A stretch of DNA of 64,000 nt, from NCBI GenBank assembly GCA_964501945.1, contig CAZCTY010000001.1:49187-113186 (forward strand), written 5' to 3'. A program made the position numbers and the translations under genes. Source of the DNA: an uncultured Methanosarcinales archaeon (GTDB lineage Archaea; Nanobdellota; Nanobdellia; Woesearchaeales; 21-14-0-10-32-9). Positions 11,341-56,349 of this stretch are shown here, one piece after another. The notes below the pieces were generated by a model that had not been told where the DNA came from, did no database searches, and was given only the letters and a program-made list of their open reading frames with translations. Each line of letters starts with the position of its first letter. Within the stretch, counting starts at the first letter, position 1.

Positions 11341-11358
11341 AAAAACCTCATAAATACA

Positions 11359-12105: not shown

Positions 12106-12154
12106 TTTTTTCTTCTCTATTTTTTATTTTTTATAAAAAAAACAAAAAAAGAAT

Positions 12155-12931: not shown

Positions 12932-13163
12932 TTTGATTTTTCACCTCTCGGTTTTTTTTATTGATCACGCACAAACCACGTAAACTCATATACAAATATG
13001 TATACTGATATATAAATCTTTCGAAAGGGGTTGGTTTTTCATCCTAAAAAATCAAAATTTTCAAGAAAGAAAGCCCAAAAACAAAAAATACATCAAAAGA
13101 AGAATATTTAACCAAAACAGAAGAAATAGACGAAGAACATATAAAGATATAAAAAAGAAACTA

Positions 13164-40340: not shown

Positions 40341-41333
40341 TCAATTTTTTAATTTATTTTTTTTAATGACATCTCCATTAACATTAGCCTTTTCCAAAAC
40401 TTCTTTTTTTATGTCAAGCTCAACAAATTGCTCAGCACTAGCAATTTCCTCCTCAACCTCGTCTAACAAGTTTTTAACTTTGTCTCTTGCCTCAAAAGAA
40501 TTATCAACTTCTAAGAAATGAATCTTAGGCTTAATCAATTTAAGCTTCATAAAAGGAATAAGCATATCAATACCTCTCCTCCTTTTCGCAGATATCAAAG
40601 AATAAAGAGATTCATACCTCTCATTAATATCAGAAACATTAGCCTTTAAAACTTCCTCGTTTAAATAAGTATTTTGCTTCATTTTCTTTGTTTTTTCTAA
40701 AAGTTGCTCACTACGCTCAGATAATGAAGCAGGAGCTGAGGTCTCAAAATCTTTTTCAGTAGAGGAGTCTTTATTCAAACTATCATTTGTTGAAGAAGGC
40801 TGTTCTATTTTTTCAGAAACATTATTAGAAGCATCACTGTCATTAGAATTTTCGACATCTTCCTTTTTAGTTTTATTTACATCAACTTCTGTTTTATTCT
40901 CTGAATTATTTTCATCAAGAGAAGCCACATCATTTGATATATTTTCATCAGATTCTTTTTTATTTCTTTTAAACAGATTCTTTAGATAATTTTTTTCTTT
41001 TTTTCTTTTATTTTCATGAGGCTTACTAATATCAGTTTTATTTTTTTTTCTAAAACTAATCTTTTTTTTCTTTTTCTTTCCATTCAAATGCTCATTAAGA
41101 ATACTTAATAAATCCTCAGGAGAACTTTTTTTCGAAAAAGAGTTAGCCAAATCTTCTTTTCCAAAAAAGCCTCTAACCCAATTCGCATAATCATTATTAG
41201 TGTCAGTAACATGTCTTTGAAAATTATGAAGATTAATTCCCTTAACATTTTTTTCTAATTCTTCTTTCAATTCGCTTAAATCTCTGAGAACTTCACCATT
41301 ACTAAAATAAAAATATTTATCTGGACTAACCAT
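40341..41333 (-). CDS. 330-aa cytoplasmic protein: N-terminal KNDF-W-like module, K/N-rich linker, C-terminal coiled coil
   Basis: The N-terminus SNGEVLRDLSELKEELEKNVKGINLHNFQRHVTDTNNDYANWVRGFFGKEDLANSF aligns with the recurring module. Its start overlaps the upstream ATPase gene by 8 nt. Confidence 0.6.
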   Translation of the reverse strand: MVSPDKYFYFSNGEVLRDLSELKEELEKNVKGINLHNFQRHVTDTNNDYANWVRGFFGKEDLANSFSKKSSPEDLLSILNEHLNGKKKKKKISFRKKNKTDISKPHENKRKKEKNYLKNLFKRNKKESDENISNDVASLDENNSENKTEVDVNKTKKEDVENSNDSDASNNVSEKIEQPSSTNDSLNKDSSTEKDFETSAPASLSERSEQLLEKTKKMKQNTYLNEEVLKANVSDINERYESLYSLISAKRRRGIDMLIPFMKLKLIKPKIHFLEVDNSFEARDKVKNLLDEVEEEIASAEQFVELDIKKEVLEKANVNGDVIKKNKLKN

Positions 41334-44300
41334 TTCTAAGCACCTCTTTTATAGCTGCCCTATCTTTCGCATGACGAATTTTCTCAGCTAATTCTTTTTC
41401 ATCAAACACGTGCTCTACCCAATTTGCAAAGTCGTTTTTCTCAGAAGTTACGTGCTTATAAAAAATATCGTCAGAAATTTTATCTAATAAATTATAAAGA
41501 TCTTTTATACTATGCAATTTTAATCCAGTCTCAAGCAAGAATGTTTTATCATCAGGCGCAATTTTTTCAAAAGCAGAGGAAACCTTAGAAGAAGTTTCAT
41601 CATCGAATTGCTCTTCTTCATCCTCTTCTTGATTCTTTTTTTCAACAGATTCATCAGATGAAGCAGCAGATTCTTTTTTAATAACGTCTTCGCTATCACT
41701 GCTTTCTTTTTTTACAGGATCTTCTTTTTCATTGCTTTCATTTTTTTCGTTTTCTTGTTCTTTGTTTTCTGCTTCAGCGTTTCCTTGTGTTTCTTTTTCA
41801 GCGCTTTCTTGTTTGTTTTCGTCGGTTGCTTCTTGTTTGTTTTCTTGTGTTTCTTTTTCGGTGTTTTCTGGTTCGTTTTCGTCGGTTTCTTTTTCTTGTT
41901 TGTCGTCATTATCGTCTTTTTTGTTTTTTGTTTCAGCACTTTCTTGTGTTTCTTTTTCTTTTTCAGTGTTTTCTGGTTCGTTTTCGTCGGTTTCTTCTTT
42001 TTTGTCTTCAGACTCTTTTTTTTCTAAAGGAGGCAGTTTTTCACCCTTGCCACGCTTATCAAGCAAATCAAGAATTTCTTTTCTATCCTTAGTATTAGCT
42101 AAATGCTCGCCTAATTCAATGTCGCCGACAGCGTTTTTAAACCAATCAGCGAAATCATTCTTTTTATCATTAACATGAAATTCAAAATCAGAGTCTTTCA
42201 TGGCTTCAATTTCAGAATACAAACTACTAGGAGTTACAACTAACATGTCATTGTTAAGCTTTAAGATTTTATCAGGAGGAACATCTTTTTTAAATTTCTC
42301 AGAAGGACTCTCTTCTTTAGAATCTCCACCACTTTCTTCTTTTTTATTTTCTTTATCAAACTTATCACGCTCACTTTGCGCCTTTTTCAAATCTTTTTCC
42401 AACTCTTCTTTAGAAACCATTTTAGGCTTTAGAATCTTAGGTTCTTTACCAATCTTATCCCACAATTTCTTTAACCTAGGTTCAAGACCCTCAATGTAAA
42501 TTTTAACCATGTTAAAATTACCAGCCTTGACTTTATCAAGTGCTAATTTAAGCTCTAACTTTAAATCAAAAACATCCTGACCTTCCTCTTCTAATTGTTC
42601 CATTTCATAAGTCATCTGATCAATTTTTTTGTTATACTCATTATACTGAGAAATTTCATCATCACTCAAACGAGCAACAGAGTGCAAGATAGGCCTGAAA
42701 GTAGTAAAATAAGGCCGACCTCTATTGTAAGCAGAGTTTTGAACCATACCAGTACCAATACTTGCCTTAACTAAGCTTTGAAGAACATCCGCGCCATACT
42801 TAGTTTTAATACGATCAAGATCTCCCTCGTCCCTAGTTCTCATCTGAATTTCTGTGTTAATGTTAGCTTTAATTTGACCAACGAAATCCGCGAGTACCTG
42901 AGATATAAGCATAACACCAATACCCCACTTCCTAAACTCACGACAAGCACGCTCAATTTGCAAGAAACCCTCACCACTACCACCAAACTTAGGCAACAAC
43001 CTGTGAACCTCATCGTAAACCAAACAAAGCCTTAAAGGCTCAGACTCATCAAAATTAGCATGAAACACCTCTCGCACAGTGTTTGCTACGAAGATATCAA
43101 TATCTTTAGGATCAAGCTTGTGAACCGCAAATACCTGAATCTCACCCGGCTTCATATATTTACGAATATCAATTAACTCACGAGCATTATCAATTTGACG
43201 AATGTTACCAACAAAAGGACGCGCATCTTTAGGCTTCATACCAAAACTCGGATACAAACCCATCAAACCTTTATTTGTAAGCTTACGAAGCATACCAGTC
43301 CATTGAGCAGTAGGATCAAAAACAATAACAGCAACATCCTTCATTAACATTTCTTCAATAATAACTTGAGCGGAAAAACTCTTACCACCACCAGTACTAC
43401 CAGCTACGATTGTGTGAGTTTTAAAATTTTCAAGATTCATATAAGACTTCTTTTCAGTCTCAGCAATCTTACCAACAAAAGCACTACGAGGCCCAGGCTT
43501 AGGCAACTCAGAATATTCAACTTTTAAATGATACTTCTTTTTAGCCTCCATCCTTTTCTTAAAAACTATTATTCCAATAATAATACCAAAGAGCAACAAA
43601 CTTCCAAGAATAGCATGCCAAACCCGCACACCCCAAAACAAAGTATATTGGTGAAATGGCAAACTAACAGTGAAAACATGACTCGAACTAGAACTCAAAT
43701 CTAAATAATTCGCAGTTACACGAATAACATACTCACCAGGAGGTAAATTATTAGGCAACTCAACGTTTCTAAGCAAAGAAACAGTAGTCTTCAAGAAAAC
43801 ATTCGCAGACTGAGTCCAAATAGTTTCCTCACCAGAAATATCTTGAATGCTAAAGAGAACATTAACAGGATACTCCCTATCAGATAACATATTAGTAAGA
43901 TCAGTTCTAAACGTGAACCTAGAACCAGAATAAATAGTTCTATCAGACATACTAATACCAATAAGAAGAGCCTGAATAGGAATTTTATCTTTATCAAGAA
44001 TTTCAATCTCAACAGGAATATTCGCATCAATATCCCCAGTTATATTAATAGTACCATTATAAATACCAGGAGTTTGATTACCAAAGAAAGTTAAAGTAAC
44101 GCGACCATCACCCCTTGCACCAATAGAAATACTGTCCCTATCAATATTAGTAATATTTTTAAAATCACCAACTAAGTCAAAATTAACCTGCATGGTGCCA
44201 TCTCTAAAACTTTGAATAACAACAGTTTCTTGAGCAAACTCTCCCTCACGAATACGCTTAGTTATACGATTAAAAGGAATCCAAAATTCCTGCCCCTCAA

Positions 44301-45459
44301 TTTCAGCAGGACGCTCAATTTGAAAAGGAACCTCACCAGGACCAACATCTTCCCCAAAATCAGGGCCTATATCAGGATGCATATCAACAAAATCAACAGG
44401 AGGCGCATCTATCTCAAGCATTATATTATGCTCAGTTTCTTCATTTAATGTAACGTTTATATCACTCTCATAAGTAGAGTAACCTTCCAAAATAGCAATT
44501 ATCTTTGACGGGCCCGCCCTAGTAGTCAAGTTATAAAAACCTTGACCATCAGTTACAGTAGAATAACCTGCAACAGTTATCAAAACATCTTCCAAAGGAT
44601 TACCAGATAAATCAGTCACAGAACCATAAACAATACCTTGCTCCTCAGGCTCATCATCCCCTCCGACACAGACATTGAAAGGATCAATAAAAACATGATA
44701 CGTAGTGGTTGAATTGTCTATAATAGGTAACAAGAATTGATAATTATAAAAACGATTATTAAAACCTCTCGAAAGAGCCTCATTTAACTCAGCGACATAA
44801 ACATAATTATCGTTTTCATCTTTTAAAATACCAGTATTAAACATACCCTCAGGTGTATCGGTGCCAACATTAGTTTTAACAGCAGGAATATTACTAATCG
44901 TTCGCTCCCCAAGAGTTATACTCATAGTTTCAGTAAAAGTCTTAGTAGCAGAATCATAATAAGACGCATCAATACCGATGAGCGCATCAATTTCTTCAGG
45001 TGATGCAGGAGTTAGAGAGTTAATAGACACCTCGGCTTCAGGAACATAACTTGCAAATAACAAATTAACCTTATCAGGCTCAACACAATCAAAAAACATA
45101 TTCGCCTCATTAGTGCTACCTTGCTCAATATCAAACATCCACGGCTGTTCTTGACCCACACCGAAAGCAGCACCATACAAACCAGCCCAATTAAAAGCAG
45201 GCTTTTTATACAATAACTCCATTTGATAAATAGTCCCGCCAATACCTTCATGATACGCAACATAACCAGTATAAATAGTAGTAGACGCGAGCAAAATAAT
45301 ACTCAAAACAAATAAAGAAATTAATAATATGTCGCTAAAAGATTTACGCTTATTCTTTTTAGGAACTGAACGATTATTAATAGCATCATCAATACTAATA
45401 TCTTTTTCCTCAAACAATTTATTTACAAAATTCCTCAAATTCCACTTCTTCTTACTCAT
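41326..45459 (-). CDS. 1377-aa membrane-anchored FtsK/HerA/VirB4-superfamily (DUF87-like) P-loop ATPase with large extracellular domain and two C-terminal KNDF-W modules
   Basis: An N-terminal TM (ILLISLFVLSIILLASTTIY) is followed by an ectodomain of about 560 aa containing a carboxypeptidase-regulatory-like beta domain (GIVYGSVTDLSGNPLEDVLITVAGYSTVTDGQGFYNL). A second TM (WHAILGSLLLFGIIIGIIVF) is followed by the ATPase core: Walker A THTIVAGSTGGGKSF, IVFDPTAQW and Walker B CLVYDEVHRLLP. Then come a coiled coil, a KNDF-W module (KNDFADWFKNAVGD), an acidic low-complexity stretch of about 170 aa and a second module (KNDFANWVEHVFDEKELAEKI). Confidence 0.8.
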   Translation of the reverse strand: MSKKKWNLRNFVNKLFEEKDISIDDAINNRSVPKKNKRKSFSDILLISLFVLSIILLASTTIYTGYVAYHEGIGGTIYQMELLYKKPAFNWAGLYGAAFGVGQEQPWMFDIEQGSTNEANMFFDCVEPDKVNLLFASYVPEAEVSINSLTPASPEEIDALIGIDASYYDSATKTFTETMSITLGERTISNIPAVKTNVGTDTPEGMFNTGILKDENDNYVYVAELNEALSRGFNNRFYNYQFLLPIIDNSTTTYHVFIDPFNVCVGGDDEPEEQGIVYGSVTDLSGNPLEDVLITVAGYSTVTDGQGFYNLTTRAGPSKIIAILEGYSTYESDINVTLNEETEHNIMLEIDAPPVDFVDMHPDIGPDFGEDVGPGEVPFQIERPAEIEGQEFWIPFNRITKRIREGEFAQETVVIQSFRDGTMQVNFDLVGDFKNITNIDRDSISIGARGDGRVTLTFFGNQTPGIYNGTINITGDIDANIPVEIEILDKDKIPIQALLIGISMSDRTIYSGSRFTFRTDLTNMLSDREYPVNVLFSIQDISGEETIWTQSANVFLKTTVSLLRNVELPNNLPPGEYVIRVTANYLDLSSSSSHVFTVSLPFHQYTLFWGVRVWHAILGSLLLFGIIIGIIVFKKRMEAKKKYHLKVEYSELPKPGPRSAFVGKIAETEKKSYMNLENFKTHTIVAGSTGGGKSFSAQVIIEEMLMKDVAVIVFDPTAQWTGMLRKLTNKGLMGLYPSFGMKPKDARPFVGNIRQIDNARELIDIRKYMKPGEIQVFAVHKLDPKDIDIFVANTVREVFHANFDESEPLRLCLVYDEVHRLLPKFGGSGEGFLQIERACREFRKWGIGVMLISQVLADFVGQIKANINTEIQMRTRDEGDLDRIKTKYGADVLQSLVKASIGTGMVQNSAYNRGRPYFTTFRPILHSVARLSDDEISQYNEYNKKIDQMTYEMEQLEEEGQDVFDLKLELKLALDKVKAGNFNMVKIYIEGLEPRLKKLWDKIGKEPKILKPKMVSKEELEKDLKKAQSERDKFDKENKKEESGGDSKEESPSEKFKKDVPPDKILKLNNDMLVVTPSSLYSEIEAMKDSDFEFHVNDKKNDFADWFKNAVGDIELGEHLANTKDRKEILDLLDKRGKGEKLPPLEKKESEDKKEETDENEPENTEKEKETQESAETKNKKDDNDDKQEKETDENEPENTEKETQENKQEATDENKQESAEKETQGNAEAENKEQENEKNESNEKEDPVKKESSDSEDVIKKESAASSDESVEKKNQEEDEEEQFDDETSSKVSSAFEKIAPDDKTFLLETGLKLHSIKDLYNLLDKISDDIFYKHVTSEKNDFANWVEHVFDEKELAEKIRHAKDRAAIKEVLRNG
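41740..42000. repeat. Intragenic imperfect tandem duplication (unit roughly 100 bp) in the acidic low-complexity region of the ATPase gene
   Basis: ggtgttttctggttcgttttcgtcggtttct at about 41861 recurs as agtgttttctggttcgttttcgtcggtttct at about 41961. The protein reads KETDENEPENTEKE...KETDENEPENTEKE. Confidence 0.5.
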
Positions 45460-48443
45460 TTTAATTTCTTCAACTCATCACCAAGCAATAAAACTTGATC
45501 CTTGAAACTTTTTTGAATATCAACATCAGCCTTATTGAAAACATCAGATAAAAGATTGTAAGTTTTAATAGCATCATCTACACTGCCTTCTTTTTGAGAG
45601 GCATGCACGCGATTAATTAAATATTCAATGTACTTTTCATTTAATAAATTCACAAGTAAAGAAATATCGTCATATACCTGATTTTTAATTTTTCCAGGAG
45701 CATTTTCATACAACATTTTAATTTCTTTGTATATAAGATTCGCACGCTCTAAATTCTGAATTTCCAAATAATCTTTAGCATCATTTATGAGAACCTTCAA
45801 CTCTTTCATCTTACGATCACTTCTAAAATTATTAACAAAACCAAACAACTTATCTTTAACATTAAAGGCATAAAACAAATAAGCCAAAACCAATATTATC
45901 AACAATAAAAACAAACCAGTGGTATGATCAACATCTCCAGCTCTTGAAGTTACCATGCCTGTAAAACTAGGAATATTGCTTCTAGAACTACTAGAAGAGA
46001 ATGCGTCCCCACCCAAAAGCAAAGTATGGGCTTTTTTAACATCATCTAAAGAAGAATGACCAACAGAGTAATAAGTTATAAAATCTGGCTTTTCTAAAAC
46101 CAATAATTCATTTCTTATAAGAGAGTCATGACTTTGCAACACAGTCAAATCAGAACGTAAATTCTCAGGCACACTTTCCAATAAAAATTGATCCCTTTTA
46201 GTCTCGCCAGTATACTCAACAGTTTTATGAACTAAAGTAATATCTTTAGTAGACCCATCCAAATAAGTAATAGTTAAATGAGCAGTGAAAGTACGAGTTC
46301 TAAAAAGATTTTGAAGCCTTTCAACTTCCCTCATGTTAACGCCGCCTTGAAGATTCCTATTTTCAAAATAAGCACTAGCAATCTCTTCCAATTCATCAGA
46401 GTCAGGATACGCAATGAACTCCTCAGATTTTTCAAGCTCAATTAATAAAGGCGTTTCTTTTTCTAATTCACGAATCAAATCTTTATATTCCTCAATTCTC
46501 TCCTCTTTTTGAACATCACTTAAATCTCGTCTCAAAGCCAAACTATTAATATCTCTTAAAATACGCTCATAATCCCTTAAACTAACTCTGAGCGTTTCCT
46601 CAACATTTAAAGCATCAGCAGCCCTTCTCGCCTCAAGCTCTAAATCATTAAAATTATCATTAGCGTTCTCAATTTTTCTCCTCAACTCACCAGCATCAAT
46701 TATATCAGATATATCATCCGCGGTAGTTGCTGAAAAACTTTCTTGAGACGCTGAAACACTCAAATCACGTACCTCAGAATCCTCATCACCACAACTAATC
46801 TGCCAACTATACTCCCCGTCATCAAGCTTTTCAACAAAAGATAGAGAGCCTTCCTTAACATCTTCTTTTTTAGCAAGATCTGCAAACCAAGAACTACCTT
46901 TTTCAGCAATTAAAAGACTACAAGTTTTTTCTTCTTCTAAAGATAAAATAGCTTCAAAACTCACTTCCTCGCGGGAGATAGATGCGCCAGCCTCAGGTGA
47001 CTGCAAAAATATAGGTGAGGTGCTATCGCTCGTGCTACTTGGGGAGGACTCAATTTTATCTAACCTAATTGTCACAGATAAATCTTCATCTAATTCAATG
47101 TCTTGATTTCTACTTGAATGACCCTCACCGCCAACTCTTAAACGATAATCATCTTCACGAAGCCTGAAAGTTACACGGCCATTACTATCAGTAAAATCAG
47201 ATTTTCTCAAATCAACAATTTGAACATCAGCATCTTCCATTACATTATTTTCATGATCTCTAACTTCAACAACCAAATCATAATACCTATCAACATCAAT
47301 TTCAAAATCTTTAACTTTCCTATTACCGCGAGAATCAACAACGATTAAAGAAACTTCGTGGGATCCAGCACTGGAGAAAGACAAATCAACCTCATCATCA
47401 GATTCAGTTTCGCCATCAAACTCCCAAGTATATTCATAAGGAGAAATACCTCCTGAAGCACTAGCTTTCAAAGTTATTTCTTCATCAACTTCCAAATCTT
47501 TTTTTCCACTCAAAGAAATATCAATAGTGTTCGTTACTTTGTATGAAACATTATGAGTAACACCAGATTCTTTTAAAATAAAATCAAGCCTATAATCTCC
47601 TGCGACGAATGCTTTTTCAAAATCAATTTTTTGCCACAACTTACCATCTTTATTGATGTTCAAATTATCAATTGTGAACTCTTCAGATTTTTCTAAGGTT
47701 TCAAAGTTAGGATTTTTCTCAGAACGCAACCAAACCTTTAATTCAAATTCTAAACCTTCCTCGCCATGAACTAAAAGATAACCTTCCTCGCCAAGAGAGA
47801 AATTTTTATCACTCAACTCAACATAAAAAGGCTCAACCACATCAACCTTTCTAATAACTTGCATAGGAGTATAATTTTCATTTTCATTGAACCTAGCGGT
47901 GATTTCATAAGTTTTGAAATCTTCAAATTTTTCACTTGACGATAATTTTGAAGCATTAGCTTTGCTCAAAACAACCTCGCCATCAATTAATAATTCTAAT
48001 TCGCCTTTAACATCAGAATCTATAGATATGTTTACAGTTTCATTTCTAAAAACAGTCAAATCTTCTGTTTTACCATTTAAAGATAAATTAAGTTTCGGCG
48101 TGGCTTTTTCAATTTCATAATTACCGGAAATATTAGTTGTGTTAGTTTCATTTCCTTTTTCCCACAAGTAATTATATTCTCCAGCGCTTAAATCATCTAT
48201 ATTTACCAAATAAGAATTTCTTTCTTTGTCATAATCAACTTTTTCCCTTGATAAAATTACTAATTTATCTTTAGATAGCTTAAACCAAACAGTATCGTTT
48301 AACTCTTCTAAATCAAGCATAAAATCATAAGATTTATCAGGCTCATAAACAGGAGATTCAGGATGGACATTACTAATAGCTGAAATAGTTGGAACTAATA
48401 GCAATATCATTAAAGTTGCCAGATAAAATATTTTGTTTTTCAT
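45456..48443 (-). CDS. 995-aa type I membrane protein with PKD-like and carboxypeptidase-regulatory-like extracellular domains, a TM helix and a cytoplasmic tail of about 130 aa
   Basis: The signal peptide ends in LLLVPTISAIS. A PKD-like segment is GGISPYEYTWEFDGETESDDEVDLSFSSAGSHEVSLIVVDSRGN. A CarboxypepD_reg-like segment is YDLVVEVRDHENNVMEDADVQIVDLRKSDFTDSNGRVTF. The TM is TGLFLLLIILVLAYLFYAF. Four-nucleotide overlaps occur at both ends. Confidence 0.75.
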   Translation of the reverse strand: MKNKIFYLATLMILLLVPTISAISNVHPESPVYEPDKSYDFMLDLEELNDTVWFKLSKDKLVILSREKVDYDKERNSYLVNIDDLSAGEYNYLWEKGNETNTTNISGNYEIEKATPKLNLSLNGKTEDLTVFRNETVNISIDSDVKGELELLIDGEVVLSKANASKLSSSEKFEDFKTYEITARFNENENYTPMQVIRKVDVVEPFYVELSDKNFSLGEEGYLLVHGEEGLEFELKVWLRSEKNPNFETLEKSEEFTIDNLNINKDGKLWQKIDFEKAFVAGDYRLDFILKESGVTHNVSYKVTNTIDISLSGKKDLEVDEEITLKASASGGISPYEYTWEFDGETESDDEVDLSFSSAGSHEVSLIVVDSRGNRKVKDFEIDVDRYYDLVVEVRDHENNVMEDADVQIVDLRKSDFTDSNGRVTFRLREDDYRLRVGGEGHSSRNQDIELDEDLSVTIRLDKIESSPSSTSDSTSPIFLQSPEAGASISREEVSFEAILSLEEEKTCSLLIAEKGSSWFADLAKKEDVKEGSLSFVEKLDDGEYSWQISCGDEDSEVRDLSVSASQESFSATTADDISDIIDAGELRRKIENANDNFNDLELEARRAADALNVEETLRVSLRDYERILRDINSLALRRDLSDVQKEERIEEYKDLIRELEKETPLLIELEKSEEFIAYPDSDELEEIASAYFENRNLQGGVNMREVERLQNLFRTRTFTAHLTITYLDGSTKDITLVHKTVEYTGETKRDQFLLESVPENLRSDLTVLQSHDSLIRNELLVLEKPDFITYYSVGHSSLDDVKKAHTLLLGGDAFSSSSSRSNIPSFTGMVTSRAGDVDHTTGLFLLLIILVLAYLFYAFNVKDKLFGFVNNFRSDRKMKELKVLINDAKDYLEIQNLERANLIYKEIKMLYENAPGKIKNQVYDDISLLVNLLNEKYIEYLINRVHASQKEGSVDDAIKTYNLLSDVFNKADVDIQKSFKDQVLLLGDELKKLK

Positions 48444-48709
48444 TTTTTAAGCTCCATTATTATGTTTTGAAGTTCTTCAAGCAATTTTTCTTTGTCTTTA
48501 GTTTCTTTTGTGTTTGAAATTTTCTGTTCTAATTGCTCTCTCATTTTTTGCACTTCGTATTTGTAGGGGGATTGATGCTGCTCACATTTTTTTCTTATGA
48601 TTGTTCTTATTTGCTCAGATAAATCTAAGTAATGATTTTCTTGGGCGAGCTCTTTTAATTCTTGAACTAACGTATTCGGGAGACGTATGCTCACAACTGT
48701 ATCTTTCAT
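48440..48709 (-). CDS. Ribbon-helix-helix transcriptional regulator (89 aa) with coiled-coil tail
   Basis: MKDTVVSIRLPNTLVQELKELAQENHYLDLSEQIRTIIRK is an RHH fold pattern. There are ATGA overlaps with the upstream RHH ORF and with the downstream 995-aa gene. Confidence 0.55.
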   Translation of the reverse strand: MKDTVVSIRLPNTLVQELKELAQENHYLDLSEQIRTIIRKKCEQHQSPYKYEVQKMREQLEQKISNTKETKDKEKLLEELQNIIMELKK

Positions 48710-48870
48710 ATCTCGCCCCCTCTTCGTTTAAGTTTTTGTTCTTGAACGTATTCGCGTAAGAATTCTCTGATTGCCTCAGATCTAGAACTGAATGTTTTTT
48801 CTTCAAGCAGAGGCTCGAGCCTTTTGAGAAGTTCTTTTGGCACCCTCACGTTTATTACTTCGGTTTTCAT
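48706..48870 (-). CDS. Ribbon-helix-helix transcriptional regulator (54 aa; below the ORF-track cutoff), first gene of the long minus-strand gene string
   Basis: Translated by hand from the minus strand: MKTEVINVRVPKELLKRLEPLLEEKTFSSRSEAIREFLREYVQEQKLKRRGGEI. This is a classic CopG-like RHH. Its TGA overlaps the ATG of the next RHH gene. Confidence 0.5.
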   Translation of the reverse strand: MKTEVINVRVPKELLKRLEPLLEEKTFSSRSEAIREFLREYVQEQKLKRRGGEI

Positions 48871-49132
48871 TATTGTCCTCAAAAAAACACTGCGTTAAAA
48901 CAAATTGTGTGTTTTTTGTAGTTTTTTATATGATTTTTGTATGACAAATGTAAGACATTTTATACCATTTTTGTATATTTGTATTACAAATGTGTGCTTT
49001 TTATACTTTTTTTGTGTGATGATAGTATATAAATGTTTTGGTTTTTAGAGAATAAAACAAAATTTACAATATGGAAAATAATTAAAAATTATTTATAAAA
49101 AAGAATTTAAACAAAACAAATATTATGATTGT
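48871..49132. promoter_or_regulatory. Divergent promoter/operator region with a repeated TTTTTGTAT / ACAAAT(T)GTGTG motif array
   Basis: acaaattgtgtgttttttgta (about 48899), atttttgtatgacaaatgt (about 48933) and atttttgtatatttgtattacaaatgtgtgc (about 48967). The TTTGTA/TACAAA half-sites are mutually inverted. TATA-like tttataaaa lies about 35 nt before the 49133 ATG. Confidence 0.4.
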
Positions 49133-49843
49133 ATGTTTGAGCCAAAAACTGTTTTTAAAAAAAACTTTCTTATATTAATTTTTATAATTCTATTAATGGT
49201 CCAAGTTCAAGCAAACGAATTATACGCAGATATAGAAATAAGACTAAATCAGAGAGGGGATGCAATAATTACAGGTGTGACAAATCACCCAACGCTTATA
49301 GGAACCTATAAAGACATGACTTCAAAACAAGAACAATACTGGCTTTTTAACTTAACAAAAGAAAATTTCACTAGCGCACTTTTTCGCATAGATTTCCCTG
49401 AAGATGTTATCATAACATATATAAGAAGCACAGCACGAATAAATATTGGAGCTGATGACGCGCCTTTTATTAAAGGAACATTAAGAAATAAACCACTAGA
49501 AATAATAGTACAATACTATTTTGACGAACCTTCTGAAGTGAGAACAAACTATTTACAAATAATAATCAGCACTATACTTATATTATTAGGAATATATATA
49601 ATGTTTTTTCATAAAAAGAAAAAAGAGAGTATAAAAGAAGAAAAGGGTCTAAGCGAGAGACAAAAAAAAATTATAGAACTTCTGGGAAAAAAAGACGGCG
49701 TAACACAAAAATACATAGAAGAAAAATTAAACTTGCCAAAATCATCAATTTCAAGAAACATATCAACACTTGAGAGAAAAGGCATAATAAAAAAAATAAC
49801 AAAAGGATTTAGCAACACAATATATTTGAATAAAAACAAATAA
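49133..49843 (+). CDS. Membrane-tethered winged-HTH transcriptional regulator (extracytoplasmic domain, TM helix, cytoplasmic wHTH)
   Basis: N-terminal signal/TM (FLILIFIILLMVQVQA). An ectodomain of about 130 aa. The TM is ISTILILLGIYIMFF. The cytoplasmic tail LSERQKKIIELLGKKDGVTQKYIEEKLNLPKSSISRNISTLERKGIIKK is a MarR/ArsR-type wHTH. Confidence 0.6.
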   Translation: MFEPKTVFKKNFLILIFIILLMVQVQANELYADIEIRLNQRGDAIITGVTNHPTLIGTYKDMTSKQEQYWLFNLTKENFTSALFRIDFPEDVIITYIRSTARINIGADDAPFIKGTLRNKPLEIIVQYYFDEPSEVRTNYLQIIISTILILLGIYIMFFHKKKKESIKEEKGLSERQKKIIELLGKKDGVTQKYIEEKLNLPKSSISRNISTLERKGIIKKITKGFSNTIYLNKNK

Positions 49844-49850
49844 ACGAGGA

Positions 49851-49921
49851 GTTCCACCTACTTACTAGTTGTTCCGCTAAGTTCCGGGCAAAAACTATAT
49901 GCTGTTCCACCTTACTAATAT
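49851..49921. promoter_or_regulatory. Array of four GTTCC direct repeats (two extended copies GTTCCACCT(AC)TTACTA)
   Basis: gttccacctacttactag at 49851, gttccgctaa at 49871, gttccgggca at 49881 and gttccaccttactaatat at 49904. They lie between the wHTH gene and the 49957 ATG. Confidence 0.35.
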
Positions 49922-49956
49922 TGTCAAACCCCAAAAAGGGATGCGAGGTGAAAAAA

Positions 49957-50838
49957 ATGAGAAATATAACAAAAACATTTCTTGTGGCTTTTACTTTGTT
50001 ATTAGCTTTGCCATTAACCATGGCACAAGCAGATATAACAAATGAAGTCGGACAAGAAACTAATGCACGCGAGGTAATGCCTTTTGAAACAATTCATGGC
50101 GCAGAAATGAGATTGCTACAATTAGAGAGAGCAATACACAGAAATATATTAAACGGCGAAACAATAATTGAAAGCCTTGATGCAGAATTAGAAAATGAAA
50201 CAATTATAGAATTAGAAGCAATTCTTCAAAGCATGATTGACTTAAAAGAAGAAGTATCTGCATACGAAGTAGGCACAGAAGACGATGTTGAAAATTTTGT
50301 GAGCTTTAGACAAGAAGCATCAGCCCTAACAAAAGAATTTAGAGACACAGTGAGAGAAACCGTTGATGAGGAAAGAGCACAAGAAATTAGAACCGCTGCA
50401 AATGAGCGAGCAAGAGATGCCATAGCGGAGTACCAAGAAAACATAAATGAGCGCGCTAGGGCACACAACGAAGAAATAACACAGAGAAGAATAGAAGTTC
50501 AAGGAATTATTAGCGAAGACTTACTTGAGAAAATAAGAACTGGAGAAATAGAACCTCAACAAATAAGAGAAGAAGTACTGAATCTAGTTAGAGAAAACCT
50601 AGGAGAACAAGCTAGTGACGCAATAGAAAACATGCGCGAGGATGCACTCAGGCAAGAGATAACTGCTAGAGAAAACATAAATAGAATAAGAGAAGAAGTC
50701 CTAGAAAATAATACGGCGCGAGCAAAAGAGAGAATCCAAGAAGTAAGAGATAGACTGCCTGATGATTTAGAACAAAACATTAGCGAGAGAATAAAAGATT
50801 TAAATGAGAGAATACAAAATAGAGGAGGGATAAGATGA
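49957..50838 (+). CDS. Secreted coiled-coil protein (E/R-rich)
   Basis: The ATG at 49957 follows GAGGTGA. The signal peptide MRNITKTFLVAFTLLLALPLTMAQA is followed by a long E/R/I-rich helical region. The track's TTG at 49921 would add 12 aa before the signal peptide. Confidence 0.6.
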   Translation: MRNITKTFLVAFTLLLALPLTMAQADITNEVGQETNAREVMPFETIHGAEMRLLQLERAIHRNILNGETIIESLDAELENETIIELEAILQSMIDLKEEVSAYEVGTEDDVENFVSFRQEASALTKEFRDTVRETVDEERAQEIRTAANERARDAIAEYQENINERARAHNEEITQRRIEVQGIISEDLLEKIRTGEIEPQQIREEVLNLVRENLGEQASDAIENMREDALRQEITARENINRIREEVLENNTARAKERIQEVRDRLPDDLEQNISERIKDLNERIQNRGGIR

Positions 50839-51026
50839 AATACTTAATAGCAATATTGCTGATTTCAGTTTTGGCAATTACAGCCTGCGCGCCTGAAGAT
50901 GTAGACATACCACCTGAAGACCCTATAATAGATGATGAAGATGATGCAGATGATGAAGCACAAGAAGACATCTTATCAGACTTAGTAGACGAAGATGAAG
51001 ATATAGAAATCGGCGAGATGATATAG
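50835..51026 (+). CDS. Small acidic lipoprotein-like protein (63 aa)
   Basis: MKYLIAILLISVLAITAC is a lipobox-like signal. It is followed by a D/E-rich tail. There is an ATGA overlap with the upstream gene. Confidence 0.45.
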   Translation: MKYLIAILLISVLAITACAPEDVDIPPEDPIIDDEDDADDEAQEDILSDLVDEDEDIEIGEMI

Positions 51027-53269: not shown

Positions 53270-53980
53270 TTATCCGCCCAACTCCACATAAAAGTAATAA
53301 GTCGTTGTATCTTCAGGATTGTTAGCCATAATTAACTGAAAATCAAATAAAGACCCGCCATCATAACCAACAGTTGAAGGATTAATAGGCGTTACATAAA
53401 TCAAGTCAGTAGGATCTTCTAATAATACAATAGGAAAATCCGAACCACTCTGATCTTGCCTAGCACTATCAACGAAGGTACTAGTCGCAGGACAATTATC
53501 CTGATCAGCCAAACCAACAGTTATAGTAGGGTGAACAGTTTCATTGAAAGTATTGGAAATACTATCAGCAGAAGCACTACTTATCGAGAGAAAAGACTCT
53601 TCTGAGGAAATAGTCGCACCAGCTGCACAATCAATATCTCCCCAATCAATGCTATCACTCCTACTCGAATAAATCTCACCGCTAATACTTGCTTGATCAA
53701 GAGCCCAATTAAAGATAGTATTGCCATCACCATCATCAAGAGTTAAACTACCTGTGATGTTCCCTACGTAGGCTTTCCACCTAGGGTTTTGCTGAAGAGC
53801 ATCAACAACTAAAGTAGTAATAGTACCTCCATCGTCAGTCCTACTATCAGGCGGACTTTCTTCAACCAAGTCAGTAACAATGTGGGTGACATCTGTTCCA
53901 GTCGGCTGAGCTAAGACGAAGGAGGAAACAATTAATACGAACCCTACAAACAAAGCCAAAAAACTCAAATTCTTAATCAT
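53270..53980 (-). CDS. Secreted protein, cassette family B (copy B2)
   Basis: The signal peptide ends in VLAQPTG. Motifs PRWKAYVGNITGSLTLDDGDGNTIFNWAL, IDWGDIDCAA and the C-terminal TTYYFYVELGG. Confidence 0.7.
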   Translation of the reverse strand: MIKNLSFLALFVGFVLIVSSFVLAQPTGTDVTHIVTDLVEESPPDSRTDDGGTITTLVVDALQQNPRWKAYVGNITGSLTLDDGDGNTIFNWALDQASISGEIYSSRSDSIDWGDIDCAAGATISSEESFLSISSASADSISNTFNETVHPTITVGLADQDNCPATSTFVDSARQDQSGSDFPIVLLEDPTDLIYVTPINPSTVGYDGGSLFDFQLIMANNPEDTTTYYFYVELGG

Positions 53981-54008: not shown

Positions 54009-54731
54009 TTATTGCAACTCCAAGTAAAAGTAGTACGGAGTAGGATTTTCATCAGTACCGTCTTCACCAACAAGTAATTGGAAATGCCAAGGAAGACCAT
54101 CGAAACCAGCAGGACTAGTATCTTCTATTATGGTTGTGTAAACCATATCATCTCCTGCCTTTAACAAAACCTGCCAAAAAGCATTACCTTGCTCACCACT
54201 CGCATTATATGCTTGAGTCGTAGGACAACCAGTAATCGCTTGACCACCAACTTCAAAAGCAGGGTGATCTGTATTAGTAAAAGTATTATTAACACTATCA
54301 GGATCATCAGGCGATTGACCCAAAGCAGCCGCCTCATCAGATATATCAGTTACATCAGGACACAAAATAGTATCCCAACTCACAGCATCGTTCCTACTAG
54401 CATAAACCTGACCTGTAGGTACAGAAACATTCCAGTCATAAAAATTATTACCACTAGAATCTGCAAGGACAATTTCCCCTGTTATGTTACCATAGAAACC
54501 TTGCCAATGCCTAGTTACAGACAAACCATGCAAGGACAATTCAGTCACATTACCTGCCTGCGCATCAACTTCTTGCGGCGCGATTTCTTCTTCAAACCTC
54601 GAACTCTCTATTACGTCTGCTGTCTCAGCACCCAAAGGCTGCGCTGCTACAAAACTTACCATTAGTAGCAAAGAGAGAGCAAACACTCCCAAAAAATATG
54701 TTCTCCCCTTCATTTTCTTTTTTTCCTCCAA
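54009..54731 (-). CDS. Secreted protein, cassette family C (copy C2)
   Basis: The signal peptide ends in FVAAQP. Motifs HWQGFYGNITGEIVLADSSGNNFYDWNVSVPTGQVYASRNDAVSWDTILCPD and the C-terminal TPYYFYLELQ. Confidence 0.7.
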   Translation of the reverse strand: MEEKKKMKGRTYFLGVFALSLLLMVSFVAAQPLGAETADVIESSRFEEEIAPQEVDAQAGNVTELSLHGLSVTRHWQGFYGNITGEIVLADSSGNNFYDWNVSVPTGQVYASRNDAVSWDTILCPDVTDISDEAAALGQSPDDPDSVNNTFTNTDHPAFEVGGQAITGCPTTQAYNASGEQGNAFWQVLLKAGDDMVYTTIIEDTSPAGFDGLPWHFQLLVGEDGTDENPTPYYFYLELQ

Positions 54732-54749: not shown

Positions 54750-55322
54750 TTAAGTTATCATCCTCTTACTAATTTTATGAGGATCGTAAATAGGATAGTA
54801 GCTTTCTTGAGATGCCTCAACATCACCAACAGTGATTTCTTCAACACCCAAACCATCAACTAATTTTTTTGAAACATTATCCTTGAAAATTATTTTAACA
54901 CTTGATTTAGGAGATTCTTCAACAAAAATCCCAGCTATTTGATCGATGCTTTCTTTTAACGCGAAGTACGTTTTTTCTATTTCCTCGTGCTTGTTACTGT
55001 ATGGATAGAGCCAAATTTTAATCAAAGCTTTTTTGTGCTCGTCAATACTGATCATTTTTTTCTCAACGAAACCATCAGCTGTTACAATTAAGTAAGCATT
55101 ATCTTTCGCGATGCTATAAACAACTCTTGGCTGGCCCTTGTCACGATTACTTATTCTCTCACTTTTTACGATGTTTGCAAGCTCGAGGAATCTTAATGAT
55201 TGGCTGATGTTTGACATTGAAGTATTTGCAAGCTTTGCCAATTCTAAAGGTGATTTTTTTTCTCGAGCTAACGCTTTCAAAATGTTCCATTTTGCGCTTG
55301 TAAAAAGTGTCTCTTGATCCAT
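54750..55322 (-). CDS. Winged-HTH transcriptional regulator (ArsR/MarR-like N-terminal domain plus C-terminal domain), first gene of the C2-B2-A2 cassette
   Basis: The start is taken at the internal ATG MDQETLF (the track ORF extends to 55385). The wHTH segment is AKWNILKALAREKKSPLELAKLANTSMSNISQSLRFLELANIVKSERISNRDKGQPRVVYSI. Confidence 0.6.
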   Translation of the reverse strand: MDQETLFTSAKWNILKALAREKKSPLELAKLANTSMSNISQSLRFLELANIVKSERISNRDKGQPRVVYSIAKDNAYLIVTADGFVEKKMISIDEHKKALIKIWLYPYSNKHEEIEKTYFALKESIDQIAGIFVEESPKSSVKIIFKDNVSKKLVDGLGVEEITVGDVEASQESYYPIYDPHKISKRMIT

Positions 55323-55515
55323 TTTTGCTCTTTTTTCTCTCCTAAACAAACACAAAAATGCGTCTTTTAAGCCACGTATATACAAAATCGTTGCTTGTGG
55401 CTTTTAGTATACATTTTTGTATTCTGATTTAATCAATGTGATAGCTCATATTTAAATGTTTCGTTTTTTACAATAAAATTTAATTTGTAGAAGTTGAAAA
55501 TAAACAAAAATAAAG

Positions 55516-55593: not shown

Positions 55594-56349
55594 TCAATAA
55601 ATTTCTGCAAAGAAATAATAAGTTGTAGGATCGGCAGCAGTCGGATCTTCAGGAACAATTAATTGAAAATCATAAAACTGAGAATCATAACCAACTTGAG
55701 CTTGCTCTATTAACGATGCAAAAACCAAATTACTAGATCCATCTTCAAGCAAAATTTCCTGGAAACTAGACTCGACAGACGGCTCTTGCCTAGCATCATC
55801 AACGTAAGTTGCAATAGCTCTACAAGAACTTTCAACTATTTGAGTGGTTCCAACAAAGAAACTCCTATGAATTGTTTCGTTAAACGTTCTATTTATACTA
55901 TCAGCACTCTCATCATCAATATTCAAATTGAGTTGCTCACTTAATATGCTCTGCTCACTCGCACAATCTATGCTTGCCCAATCAATATCTTCATGACGTG
56001 TAACATAAACTTGACCTGAAACAGTGACTAAATCCCAATCATAAATAGATTGGCTGCTCGCATCTTGCAGAGCAAGTCTACCGGAGACGTTACCAACATA
56101 CGCTTTCCAACGAGGAGTTTGAAAAGTACCATTTAAAACAAGCGTAGTAAATGTTCCGCCAGCAGTAGTTAACTCGGCAGCAGGCTCAGGAGTAATAGTT
56201 TCAGTTTCGTTTAGTGATATATCTACACCGGCAGGCTGAGCACTAACACTGCTTGAAATATTTAAAGCCCCAAAAGAGCTTGTTATGAGTAAAACTAAGA
56301 GGAATACAATAACTAATTTCTCCATCCGCAAATTAGTCGCTTTACTCAT
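55594..56349 (-). CDS. Secreted protein, cassette family B (solo copy B3) inside the IR-bounded segment
   Basis: The signal peptide ends in SVSAQPAG. Motifs PRWKAYVGNVSGRLALQDASSQSIYDWDL, IDWASIDCAS and the C-terminal TTYYFFAEIY. Confidence 0.7.
   Translation of the reverse strand: MSKATNLRMEKLVIVFLLVLLITSSFGALNISSSVSAQPAGVDISLNETETITPEPAAELTTAGGTFTTLVLNGTFQTPRWKAYVGNVSGRLALQDASSQSIYDWDLVTVSGQVYVTRHEDIDWASIDCASEQSILSEQLNLNIDDESADSINRTFNETIHRSFFVGTTQIVESSCRAIATYVDDARQEPSVESSFQEILLEDGSSNLVFASLIEQAQVGYDSQFYDFQLIVPEDPTAADPTTYYFFAEIY

What the first reader, a model, noticed from the sequence alone, without database searches (positions are those of the whole stretch)
49133..49843. Membrane-tethered one-component regulator (ectodomain, TM, cytoplasmic winged HTH) divergent from the gene string
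The protein has an N-terminal signal/TM, an ectodomain of about 130 aa, a second TM and a MarR/ArsR-like wHTH. That architecture would let an extracellular cue, such as host contact, control transcription of the adjacent surface-apparatus genes directly.
Basis: inference. Interest (0 to 1): 0.55.

Follow-up and report, generated by a model that had tools for sequence, protein, structure and literature searches.

The report
Membrane-anchored archaeal regulator with its own operator

Summary
The ORF 49133..49843 (+, 236 aa) is real. Its architecture is confirmed with corrections. It has a probably cleaved Sec signal peptide, a conserved all-beta ectodomain of about 105-110 aa, one TM helix, a basic linker and a cytoplasmic winged HTH (Pfam DUF7343, above cut-off).

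It belongs to a large uncharacterised archaeal family: 281 clusters (50% identity) at E<=1e-30. Members come from DPANN, Thermoplasmatota, Altiarchaeota and other lineages.

The link to the divergent surface-gene string is not conserved: 0 of 80 species-level loci keep it. What is conserved is a self-contained three-gene cassette:
- gene 1, the regulator;
- gene 2, a secreted all-alpha protein (49957..50838);
- gene 3, a small lipid- or TM-anchored acidic peptide ending in an almost invariant VEIGEMI (50835..51026).

Gene 2 follows gene 1 on the same strand in 65 of 69 loci with enough downstream DNA.

The gap between genes 1 and 2 holds a promoter conserved across phyla. It has three TGTTCCG boxes at 10-bp spacing, a BRE/TATA, and a fourth box 23 bp after the third. 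GTTCC is enriched 16-fold there.

The best reading is that the regulator binds these boxes and controls genes 2-3, probably as envelope feedback. DNA binding and the sensed signal are inferred, not shown.

The parts
49092..49103 (+). Putative TATA box of gene 1 (TTTATAAAAAAG), about 30 nt before the ATG
   Evidence: Read from the sequence. Assigned by position only; inference.
49133..49843 (+). Gene 1: type-I membrane-anchored wHTH protein, 236 aa
   Evidence: ORF. DUF7343 and MarR_2 above cut-off. 18 full-length homologues. 281 clusters at E<=1e-30. AF2 model with pLDDT 88.8.
49133..49213 (+). Signal peptide, aa 1-27, predicted cleavage after VQA
   Evidence: Hydropathy and the small-x-small site 2-4 aa before the invariant YYAD in all 18 homologues. 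Helix 10-24 in the model.
49214..49546 (+). Ectodomain, aa 28-138: conserved all-beta domain with motifs YYAD, TNHP, TSK, W-x-F-N-x-S/T and QY
   Evidence: pLDDT 96-97, all strands. Invariant columns. No Pfam or PDB sequence match. Weak fold match to Ost1/ribophorin I.
49547..49615 (+). Single TM helix, aa 139-161
   Evidence: Kyte-Doolittle peak of 2.5, positive-inside charge bias. Helix 140-165.
49616..49645 (+). Basic juxtamembrane linker, aa 162-171 (HKKKKESIKE)
   Evidence: Sequence. pLDDT below 50 at 163-169. Family median linker is 19 aa, range 6-38.
49646..49828 (+). Cytoplasmic winged HTH, aa 172-232. Recognition helix PKSSISRNISTLER is aa 202-215 (49736..49777).
   Evidence: Pfam hits. 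H175-186, H192-199, H203-215 and a beta wing at 219-232. The motif PK[SA]S[IVL]SRN[IV] is present in 137 of 162 HMMER-found members.
49851..49855 (+). GTTCC box 1 (distal)
49871..49875 (+). GTTCC box 2
49881..49885 (+). GTTCC box 3, 10 bp after box 2, abutting the BRE
   Evidence: 10 bp is the dominant spacing (63 instances).
49890..49901 (+). BRE/TATA-like element of the gene 2 promoter (AAAAACTATATG)
   Evidence: Conserved as AAAnTAnATATG in the anchored alignment of 35 loci. Assigning it as BRE/TATA is inference.
49904..49908 (+). GTTCC box 4, 2 nt after the TATA and 23 bp after box 3
   Evidence: The 23-bp spacing occurs 37 times.
49945..49950 (+). Shine-Dalgarno-like GAGGTG, 6 nt before the gene 2 ATG
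   Evidence: Sequence. The same GAGGTG/GGAGG precedes gene 2 in many loci.
49957..50838 (+). Gene 2: secreted all-alpha protein, 293 aa, conserved core GAEVRLLQLExxIxRNIL
   Evidence: Alignments. Follows gene 1 on the same strand in 65 of 69 loci. AF2 pLDDT 79.5, pTM 0.78. No Pfam hit and no PDB fold match.
50835..51026 (+). Gene 3: 63-aa lipobox (ITAC) protein with an acidic variable linker and a nearly invariant C-terminal IEIGEMI. Its start overlaps the gene 2 stop by 4 nt.
   Evidence: Alignments. Lipobox in 47-49 of 65. C-terminus VEIGEMI or IEIGEMI in 29 of 65, with conservative variants in most of the rest.

Best explanation
Gene 1 is the regulator of a self-contained three-gene archaeal envelope module.

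1. After signal-peptide removal it sits in the membrane as a type-I protein. A conserved beta-sandwich-like domain faces outward. A minimal winged HTH sits 6-38 residues below the inner face of the membrane.
2. Several copies bind side by side to an array of TGTTCC boxes. Three boxes at 10-bp spacing abut the BRE. A fourth lies just after the TATA box. This promoter is immediately downstream of its own gene.
3. Binding there sets transcription of gene 2 (a secreted helical-bundle protein) and gene 3 (a membrane-anchored acidic peptide ending in VEIGEMI), which appear to be translationally coupled.
4. Both products end up on the same side of the membrane as the ectodomain. The most economical circuit is therefore feedback: the ectodomain reads the amount or state of these two products, or a cue that acts through them, and adjusts their synthesis.
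5. The tight linkage of regulator gene and target promoter would keep the target DNA near the membrane, through co-translational insertion of all three products. The factor could then act without being released.

Shown here: the architecture, the topology signals, the cassette, the box array and its conservation.

Inferred: that the wHTH binds the boxes, whether regulation is activation or repression, and what is sensed.
For: Architecture and topology.

Family size and spread.

Cassette:
- Genes 2 and 3 are homologous across loci.
- The order gene 1, gene 2, gene 3 on one strand holds in 65 of 69 (gene 2) and 58 of 69 (both) species-level loci with at least 1.8 kb downstream. Two further loci have a divergent gene 2.
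- No other neighbour is shared by more than 13 of 83 loci.

Operator:
- The consensus is tGTTCCgg.TTGTTCCG.t.tGTTCCGGt.AAA.Ta.ATATGcTGTTcCA.
- 66 of 74 loci have at least 2 exact GTTCC, and 39 have at least 3.
- Density is 14.6 per kb against 0.91 per kb elsewhere in the same loci.
- Box spacings peak sharply at 10, 23 and 33 bp.
- The boxes stay with gene 2 when an insertion separates the genes (L012, L018, L080) or when gene 2 is divergent (L079, L083).
- The recognition helix is nearly invariant in members found without reference to it. This matches an operator that is invariant across phyla.
- The gap is not a structured RNA (z = +1.72) and matches no Rfam family.
- In the 64-kb window the exact double box in intergenic DNA occurs only here.
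Against: - No binding experiment exists, and no co-variation between protein and site could be measured, because both are nearly invariant.
- The 80 genome loci were retrieved with a peptide pattern taken from the recognition helix. Helix conservation within that set is therefore circular. Only searches are free of this.
- GTTCC boxes are not enriched upstream of gene 1, so autoregulation is not supported family-wide.
- Another factor could bind the boxes.
- The cytoplasmic domain is a bare wHTH without a recognisable dimerisation element. Cooperative array binding is assumed.
- Nothing shows that the products of genes 2 and 3 touch the ectodomain.
It gives no information on a wider regulon.
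Confidence: 0.6

Rival explanations
1. The protein senses an external cue such as host contact and directly controls the divergently transcribed surface-apparatus string (48882 down to about 15191, minus strand) through the shared 48883..49132 region.
For: - The genes are divergent and share a 250-bp AT-rich intergenic region.
- That region is unusually well conserved with L006 and L010: 77% column identity, although the proteins are only about 50% identical.
- The arrangement is kept in those near relatives.
Against: - None of the 80 species-level loci has homologues of the RHH pair, the 995-aa protein or the 1377-aa protein beside the regulator.
- The shared region holds no GTTCC box array.
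- Its conserved TTTGT-N3-ACAAA palindromes occur only in loci that carry the RHH-led string. They are more simply operators for the two ribbon-helix-helix proteins at the head of that string.
- Nothing bears on host contact.
Confidence: 0.08
2. Proteolytic release. The membrane form is an inactive precursor. A signal triggers ectodomain shedding and intramembrane cleavage, and the freed wHTH then acts on the boxes, and perhaps on distant targets.
For: - The single-pass type-I layout with a short basic linker resembles substrates of regulated intramembrane proteolysis (established knowledge of RseA/RsiV-type systems; PMC4183432 was only listed in the results and was not read).
- The TM has S, T and G residues.
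- The linker is disordered in the model.
Against: - No protease gene is conserved next to the cassette.
- The strict adjacency of the regulator gene and its target promoter is what a non-released, membrane-bound factor would need. A diffusible one would not need it.
- Membrane-bound archaeal and bacterial regulators are known to bind DNA while anchored (PMC6396743, PMC10269533).
Confidence: 0.15
3. Peptide signalling. Gene 3 is a pro-peptide whose conserved C-terminal heptapeptide (VEIGEMI) is the ligand of the ectodomain, either released or tethered. Gene 2 processes, carries or sequesters it. This would be an autocrine or quorum-like loop.
For: - Gene 3 has an export signal, a variable acidic spacer and a nearly invariant C-terminal 7-mer. 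This layout recalls the precursors of Gram-positive peptide pheromones (own knowledge).
- It is encoded beside a regulator with an extracellular domain, and under that regulator's putative operator.
Against: - The peptide is almost identical from DPANN to Thermoplasmatota. Communication peptides normally diverge between lineages.
- It is anchored by a lipobox or a TM segment rather than freely secreted.
- No protease or exporter is linked to the cassette.
- The invariance fits a structural contact better. This is really a sub-case of the main explanation.
Confidence: 0.12
4. Not a transcription factor. The protein is a structural envelope or translocon-associated subunit. Its winged helix mediates protein contacts or a non-specific DNA-membrane tether, and the ectodomain is related to the membrane-proximal domain of Ost1/ribophorin I.
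For: - The best Foldseek PDB matches of the model are Ost1/ribophorin I chains (6s7o_E, 8b6l_O, 6c26_1; E about 1e-3), ranked ahead of the wHTH matches.
- A W-x-F-N-x-S/T sequon is present in 71 of 83 ectodomains.
- The cassette is kept in very small DPANN genomes.
Against: - The fold match is weak (TM-score 0.25-0.30, rmsd 14-18 A). It may only reflect a beta-sandwich followed by a TM helix.
- There is no sequence support from PDB or Pfam profiles.
- This reading does not explain a phylum-spanning box array on the neighbouring promoter, or the conserved recognition-helix motif typical of DNA-reading wHTH proteins.
Confidence: 0.07

Closest known systems
Transmembrane transcription regulators (TTRs) as defined by Demey et al. 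2023 (PMC10269533)
   Same: The protein has a predicted DNA-binding domain plus a TM segment. The survey found such proteins widespread, about 4 per archaeal genome, and mostly single-pass.
   Different: That work is a census by domain content. I found no description of this family, its ectodomain, its partner genes or its operator. 'DUF7343' returns no paper.
ToxR/ToxS, TcpP/TcpH and CadC of Gammaproteobacteria (own knowledge of the literature)
   Same: A membrane-bound wHTH acts on DNA while anchored. It recognises direct repeats next to the core promoter. An extracytoplasmic domain does the sensing. A small extracytoplasmic partner is encoded immediately downstream.
   Different: - The polarity is opposite: here the sensor is N-terminal and outside, after a signal peptide, and the wHTH is C-terminal and inside.
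- The wHTH is DUF7343/MarR-like, not OmpR/PhoB-type.
- The promoter is archaeal, with BRE/TATA.
- The partners appear to be the regulated target rather than co-transcribed chaperones only.
ArnR and ArnR1 of Sulfolobus acidocaldarius (PMC6396743)
   Same: These are archaeal membrane-bound one-component regulators that bind repeated boxes upstream of BRE/TATA. Both boxes are needed for binding.
   Different: ArnR has an N-terminal HTH, HAMP and sensor domains in the cytoplasm, and two C-terminal TM helices. Its boxes are inverted repeats (TCGAC-N5-GTCGA). It has no extracellular domain and no co-encoded secreted partners.
Pfam PF24034 (DUF7343) and MarR/TrmB-type winged helices
   Same: The cytoplasmic 60 residues score above the DUF7343 and MarR_2 cut-offs. 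The PDB fold neighbours are MarR, ArsR and CodY wHTH domains.
   Different: Only the HTH core matches, about 50-57 residues. The MarR dimerisation helices are absent. DUF7343 has no assigned function.
Envelope-stress feedback circuits such as CpxA/CpxP/NlpE (own knowledge)
   Same: The logic is similar: a sensor controls synthesis of an extracytoplasmic helical protein, and a lipoprotein takes part in signalling.
   Different: There is no homology and no kinase or response regulator. The analogy is functional only and is untested.

Membership tests
Pfam DUF7343 (PF24034) | Whole-protein score at or above the curated gathering cut-off (27.6 bits) | tested here: met
   39.3 bits, E 6e-10, residues 176-232 against model positions 4-61 of 62. 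The family is also precomputed for 16 of the 18 proteins returned by the homologue search.
Transmembrane transcription regulator (TTR, PMC10269533) | A predicted DNA-binding domain and at least one predicted TM region in one polypeptide | tested here: met
   wHTH plus a TM helix at 139-161.
Transmembrane transcription regulator (TTR, PMC10269533) | Regulates transcription from the membrane | not testable with these tools
   Only indirect support: a conserved box array on the adjacent promoter.
MarR family | wHTH core matching the MarR models above cut-off | tested here: met
   MarR_2 at 33.2 against 27; MarR at 25.0 against 24.6; about 50 residues only.
MarR family | N- and C-terminal helices that form the dimer interface around the wHTH (a domain of about 140 aa) | tested here: not met
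   The cytoplasmic part is about 75 aa, with three helices and a wing only. The Pfam match covers model positions 1-52 of 59-61.
ToxR/CadC-type regulators | N-terminal cytoplasmic OmpR/PhoB-type wHTH, then a TM, then a C-terminal periplasmic domain | tested here: not met
   No OmpR-type (Trans_reg_C) hit among 25 Pfam matches. The domain order and topology are the reverse.
ArnR-type archaeal regulators | N-terminal HTH, HAMP and sensor domains, and two C-terminal TM helices | tested here: not met
   No HAMP hit. One TM, preceded by an exported domain. The ArnR layout is taken from PMC6396743.
Substrates of regulated intramembrane proteolysis | Signal-dependent site-1 and site-2 cleavage that releases the cytoplasmic domain | not testable with these tools
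   No protease is conserved in the neighbourhood. Cleavage itself cannot be assessed from sequence.
Ribophorin I / Ost1 | Sequence membership (Pfam Ribophorin_I) or a clear fold match of the luminal domains plus the TM | tested here: inconclusive
   Foldseek E about 1e-3 and TM-score 0.25-0.30 for 150-170 columns. No Pfam or PDB sequence-profile match.

The most novel reading that the evidence does not exclude
This is the founding example of a pan-archaeal outside-to-promoter signalling module.
- A type-I membrane-anchored winged-helix factor polymerises on a helically phased TGTTCC array that wraps the core promoter of its two extracytoplasmic partner genes.
- The invariant C-terminal VEIGEMI peptide of the lipid-anchored partner serves as a tethered ligand for an ectodomain that is distantly related to the membrane-proximal domain of Ost1/ribophorin I.

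It would be the first archaeal transcription factor shown to read the cell exterior directly. Its operator would be conserved from DPANN to Thermoplasmatota.
Probability: 0.25. Interest if true: 0.78.

Novelty: new variant of a known kind. Interest (0 to 1): 0.6.

Why it matters
Very little is known about how archaea couple events outside the membrane to transcription. This is especially true of DPANN lineages, which have tiny genomes and almost no classical two-component systems. The only studied membrane-bound archaeal regulators, ArnR and ArnR1, sense inside the cell.

This family offers a compact, widespread and self-contained system with three things already defined:
- a sensor-regulator with an exported domain;
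- a predicted operator that is the same in distant phyla;
- two candidate extracytoplasmic partners.

Binding, stoichiometry and ligand questions can therefore be tested at once with short synthetic DNA, a 75-residue domain and a 7-residue peptide.

The result also corrects the local annotation. The regulator should not be used to infer how the neighbouring surface apparatus is controlled.

Tried and rejected
1. Fused-chain AF2 prediction (ectodomain, GS linker, gene 3 C-terminus, 40 paired rows) to test docking.
2. Foldseek of the gene 2 model against the PDB. It returned only generic helical bundles with E>=0.1.
3. Pfam and NCBIfam scans of genes 2 and 3 found no family. Pfam and a PDB sequence-profile search of the ectodomain also found nothing.
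4. The TTTGT-N3-ACAAA palindromes at 48936 and 48978 as the regulator's operator. Rejected, because they occur only in loci with the RHH-led string.
5. K-mer enrichment upstream of gene 1 across loci. It found only a clade-specific GAAAC/GTTTC pattern in Thermoplasmatota-type loci and no GTTCC enrichment.
6. A metagenome-wide scan for the triple box, to ask which genes it precedes. One of 120 stretches carried the cassette (L096). Many of the others are satellite-like or other GTTCC repeat arrays. The scan is uninformative about a wider regulon.
7. Searches for a further conserved neighbour, such as a protease or a glycosylation gene. None was found in more than 13 of 83 loci.
8. An RNA-element reading of the gene 1-gene 2 gap. 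Rejected: no Rfam hit, and it folds worse than shuffled sequences.
9. Literature searches for DUF7343 and COG2512, and the reviews of archaeal 'dark matter', gave no description of the cassette. Source names are absent or read 'hypothetical' or 'uncharacterized membrane protein'.
Full report
**Observation.** The ORF 49133..49843 (+) starts with ATG, encodes 236 aa, and is called identically on four public contigs. Pfam places a winged HTH at residues 172-232. DUF7343 (PF24034) scores 39.3 bits against a cut-off of 27.6, and MarR_2 scores 33.2 against 27. Many other wHTH models score below their cut-offs. NCBIfam gives only sub-threshold wHTH matches.

Eighteen full-length homologues of 230-322 aa share the whole layout. 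An exhaustive profile search found 281 clusters (50% identity) at E<=1e-30 and 847 at E<=1e-10.

**Topology.** Every homologue begins with a basic n-region, a 12-15 residue hydrophobic core and a small-x-small site. This site lies 2-4 residues before the invariant YYAD (VQA|NELYAD in the window). The second hydrophobic segment (139-161) is followed by 5-10 K/R in 15 residues in most homologues, against 0-3 before it.

The AF2 model (pLDDT 88.8) shows these elements:
- a helix at 10-24;
- an all-beta domain at 31-130, with pLDDT 96-97;
- a TM helix at 140-165;
- a disordered basic stretch at 163-169;
- three helices plus a beta wing at 175-232.

I read this as a cleaved signal peptide and a single-pass type-I protein, with an ectodomain of about 105-110 aa and a cytoplasmic wHTH. 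No dedicated signal-peptide or topology predictor was available, so cleavage is an inference from the (-3,-1) rule and its fixed distance to YYAD.

**What the ectodomain is.** It matches no Pfam family and no PDB sequence by profile search. Foldseek of the full model ranks Ost1/ribophorin I chains first (6s7o_E, 8b6l_O, 6c26_1). These have E about 1e-3, 150-170 columns, TM-score 0.25-0.30 and rmsd 14-18 A. MarR, ArsR and CodY wHTH domains follow. I treat the Ost1 match as a lead only. A beta-sandwich followed by a TM helix is rare among solved structures, and that alone may explain the ranking.

A W-x-F-N-x-S/T sequon is present in 71 of 83 ectodomains.

**Context: the key correction.** In the window the gene is divergent from a long minus-strand string. 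That string starts with two ribbon-helix-helix proteins and continues with large PKD/CarboxypepD_reg/CARDB proteins. It includes a 1377-aa protein with a HerA/DUF87 ATPase domain. Relatives with about 50% identity (L006, L010) keep this arrangement. More distant ones (L004, L008) do not.

A scan of one genome per species returned 132 relatives. The 80 kept loci carry record titles from Woesearchaeota, Nanoarchaeota, Aenigmatarchaeota, Iainarchaeum, Altiarchaeota, Thermoplasmatota and Methanobacteriota, plus MAGs titled Methanosarcinales. None of the 80 has a homologue of the RHH pair, the 995-aa protein or the 1377-aa protein nearby.

By contrast, two co-oriented downstream genes are conserved.
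- Gene 2 (49957..50838) has a signal peptide and the core GAEVRLLQLExxIxRNIL.
- Gene 3 (50835..51026) is a 63-aa protein.

Both are homologous across loci. Of 69 species-level loci with at least 1.8 kb of downstream DNA, 65 have gene 2 after gene 1 on the same strand, and 58 have both genes detected. Two more have gene 2 divergent. No other gene family recurs in more than 13 of 83 neighbourhoods. The conserved unit is therefore exactly three genes.

**The partners.** Gene 2 is modelled as a compact all-alpha bundle (pLDDT 79.5, pTM 0.78). It has no PDB fold match better than E 0.1 and no Pfam family.

Gene 3 has a signal peptide with a lipobox cysteine in 47-49 of 65 cases. About 15 Thermoplasmatota-type versions lack the cysteine and appear to keep an uncleaved N-terminal anchor. 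A variable acidic spacer follows, and then an almost invariant C-terminus, VEIGEMI or IEIGEMI. The cysteine-less versions agree with the reported gaps of the lipoprotein-lipidation enzyme AliA in Thermoplasmata (PMC12462473).

Gene 3 overlaps the gene 2 stop by 4 nt in the window and in several other loci. This suggests translational coupling.

**The operator.** Listing the gene 1-gene 2 gaps revealed a promoter conserved across phyla. Anchored on the TATA-proximal box, 35 loci give the consensus tGTTCCgg.TTGTTCCG.t.tGTTCCGGt.AAA.Ta.ATATGcTGTTcCA.
- At least 2 exact GTTCC occur in 66 of 74 loci, and at least 3 in 39.
- Density is 14.6 per kb, against 0.91 per kb per strand in the rest of the same loci.
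- Distances between successive boxes peak at 10 bp (63 instances), 23 bp (37) and 33 bp (17). The boxes therefore lie on roughly one face of the helix, on both sides of the BRE/TATA.
- The array stays with gene 2 when other DNA is inserted between the genes (L012, L018, L080) and when gene 2 is divergent (L079, L083).

In the window the boxes are at 49851, 49871, 49881 and 49904. The TATA-like element is at 49890..49901. A GAGGTG lies 6 nt before the ATG at 49957. That ATG agrees with the public gene call, and the longer TTG-initiated ORF at 49921 can be set aside.

The exact double box occurs in intergenic DNA only here in the 64 kb. One other exact match lies inside a large coding region. 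The gap has no Rfam match and folds worse than shuffled sequence, with z = +1.72. The conservation is therefore at the DNA level.

**Linking operator and protein.** The recognition helix carries PK[SA]S[IVL]SRN[IV] in 137 of 162 members, and a loose version in 154. These members were retrieved by HMMER without reference to that motif. The 80 genome loci were retrieved with that very pattern, so its constancy within that set is circular and I do not count it.

A nearly invariant reading head next to a nearly invariant site, always in cis, is the basis for assigning the boxes to this wHTH. This is an inference. GTTCC is not enriched upstream of gene 1. Only Thermoplasmatota-type loci show a conserved GAAAC-TATA-GTTTC arrangement there, together with a GTTTCA variant of box 4.

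**The shared divergent region.** 48883..49132 is strikingly conserved with L006 and L010. It holds two TTTGT-N3-ACAAA palindromes 42 bp apart, against 0.2 expected by chance. These occur only where the RHH-led string is present. I assign them provisionally to the RHH proteins, not to the regulator.

**Mechanism proposed.** Several membrane-anchored wHTH copies occupy the phased boxes around the core promoter of genes 2-3. The ectodomain modulates this according to the state of the extracytoplasmic face, most simply through the two products it controls.

Upstream boxes abutting the BRE are typical of archaeal activators, and a box between the TATA and the start site is typical of repressors (own knowledge). 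The sign of regulation is therefore open.

The obligatory adjacency of regulator gene and target promoter fits a factor that stays in the membrane. Release by proteolysis cannot be excluded.

**Comparison with what is known.** The protein meets the broad definition of a transmembrane transcription regulator (PMC10269533). It works like ToxR/ToxS-type systems, but with opposite polarity, a different wHTH class and an archaeal promoter. It differs from ArnR/ArnR1, the studied archaeal membrane regulators, which have an N-terminal HTH, cytoplasmic HAMP and sensor domains, two C-terminal TM helices and inverted-repeat boxes (PMC6396743). It is a member of DUF7343 by score, and it is not a full MarR protein.

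I found no publication on the family or the cassette.

**Verdict.** It is a new variant of a known kind, of moderate to high interest because the predictions are sharp and cheap to test.

Noticed in passing
window 48883-49132 (palindromes at 48936-48948 and 48978-48990): The divergent intergenic region is more conserved than the flanking proteins: 77% column identity with L006 and L010, against about 50% protein identity. It holds two TTTGT-N3-ACAAA palindromes 42 bp apart, found only in loci with the RHH-led gene string. They are probably operators for the two ribbon-helix-helix proteins at 48706-48882 and 48440-48709.
   Followed up: partly
L021, L022, L024, L028, L032, L036, L040, L041, L048, L054, L056, L067 (about 40-90 nt upstream of gene 1): Thermoplasmatota-type loci share GGAAGAAAC-TTTAATAATAA-N8-GTTTCAGG around the gene 1 TATA box. 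They use GTTTCA instead of GTTCC as box 4 of the gene 2 promoter. This may be clade-specific autoregulation.
   Followed up: partly
window 41326-45459 (-): A 1377-aa protein in the surface-gene string combines a CarboxypepD_reg domain, a HerA/DUF87 ATPase core and DUF5752. It is flanked by proteins of 2468, 1903 and 2469 aa with CARDB and Ig-like domains.
   Followed up: no
window 53270-53980, 54009-54731, 55594-56349 (all -): Three paralogous secreted proteins of 236-251 aa end in a shared YYF(Y/F)xE(L/I) motif. An ArsR-type HTH protein (54750-55385) lies among them.
   Followed up: no
L006 10852-13250: In this near relative the gene 2-gene 3 pair is duplicated in tandem: 10852-11898 with 11906-12103, then 12143-13015 with 13023-13250. 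Only about 40 nt separate the two pairs, so the second pair probably has no box array of its own. I did not inspect this.
   Followed up: no
L017 8428-9798: A second, longer ORF (456 aa) matches the regulator profile weakly (E 4.8e-13), a few kb downstream of the cassette. It may be a paralogue with a different exported part.
   Followed up: no
gene 1 aa 70-75 (window 49340-49357) and homologues: A W-x-F-N-x-S/T motif, which is an N-glycosylation sequon, is kept in 71 of 83 ectodomains. The best PDB fold matches of the model are Ost1/ribophorin I subunits of oligosaccharyltransferase. The coincidence is unexplained.
   Followed up: partly
L092, L152, L161; L157, L164: Unrelated metagenome contigs carry other phased GTTCCG arrays (for example GTTCCgggatGTTCCggaatGTTCCggaatGTTCCatGTTCC) without the cassette. 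They may be iterons or binding arrays of other systems.
   Followed up: no
gene 3 in L020-L022, L027, L028, L032, L035, L036, L040, L041, L048, L054, L056, L070, L085: These versions of the small partner lack the lipobox cysteine and have a hydrophobic N-terminus ending in SYAYF or similar. This matches the reported patchy presence of the lipidation enzyme AliA in Thermoplasmata.
   Followed up: partly
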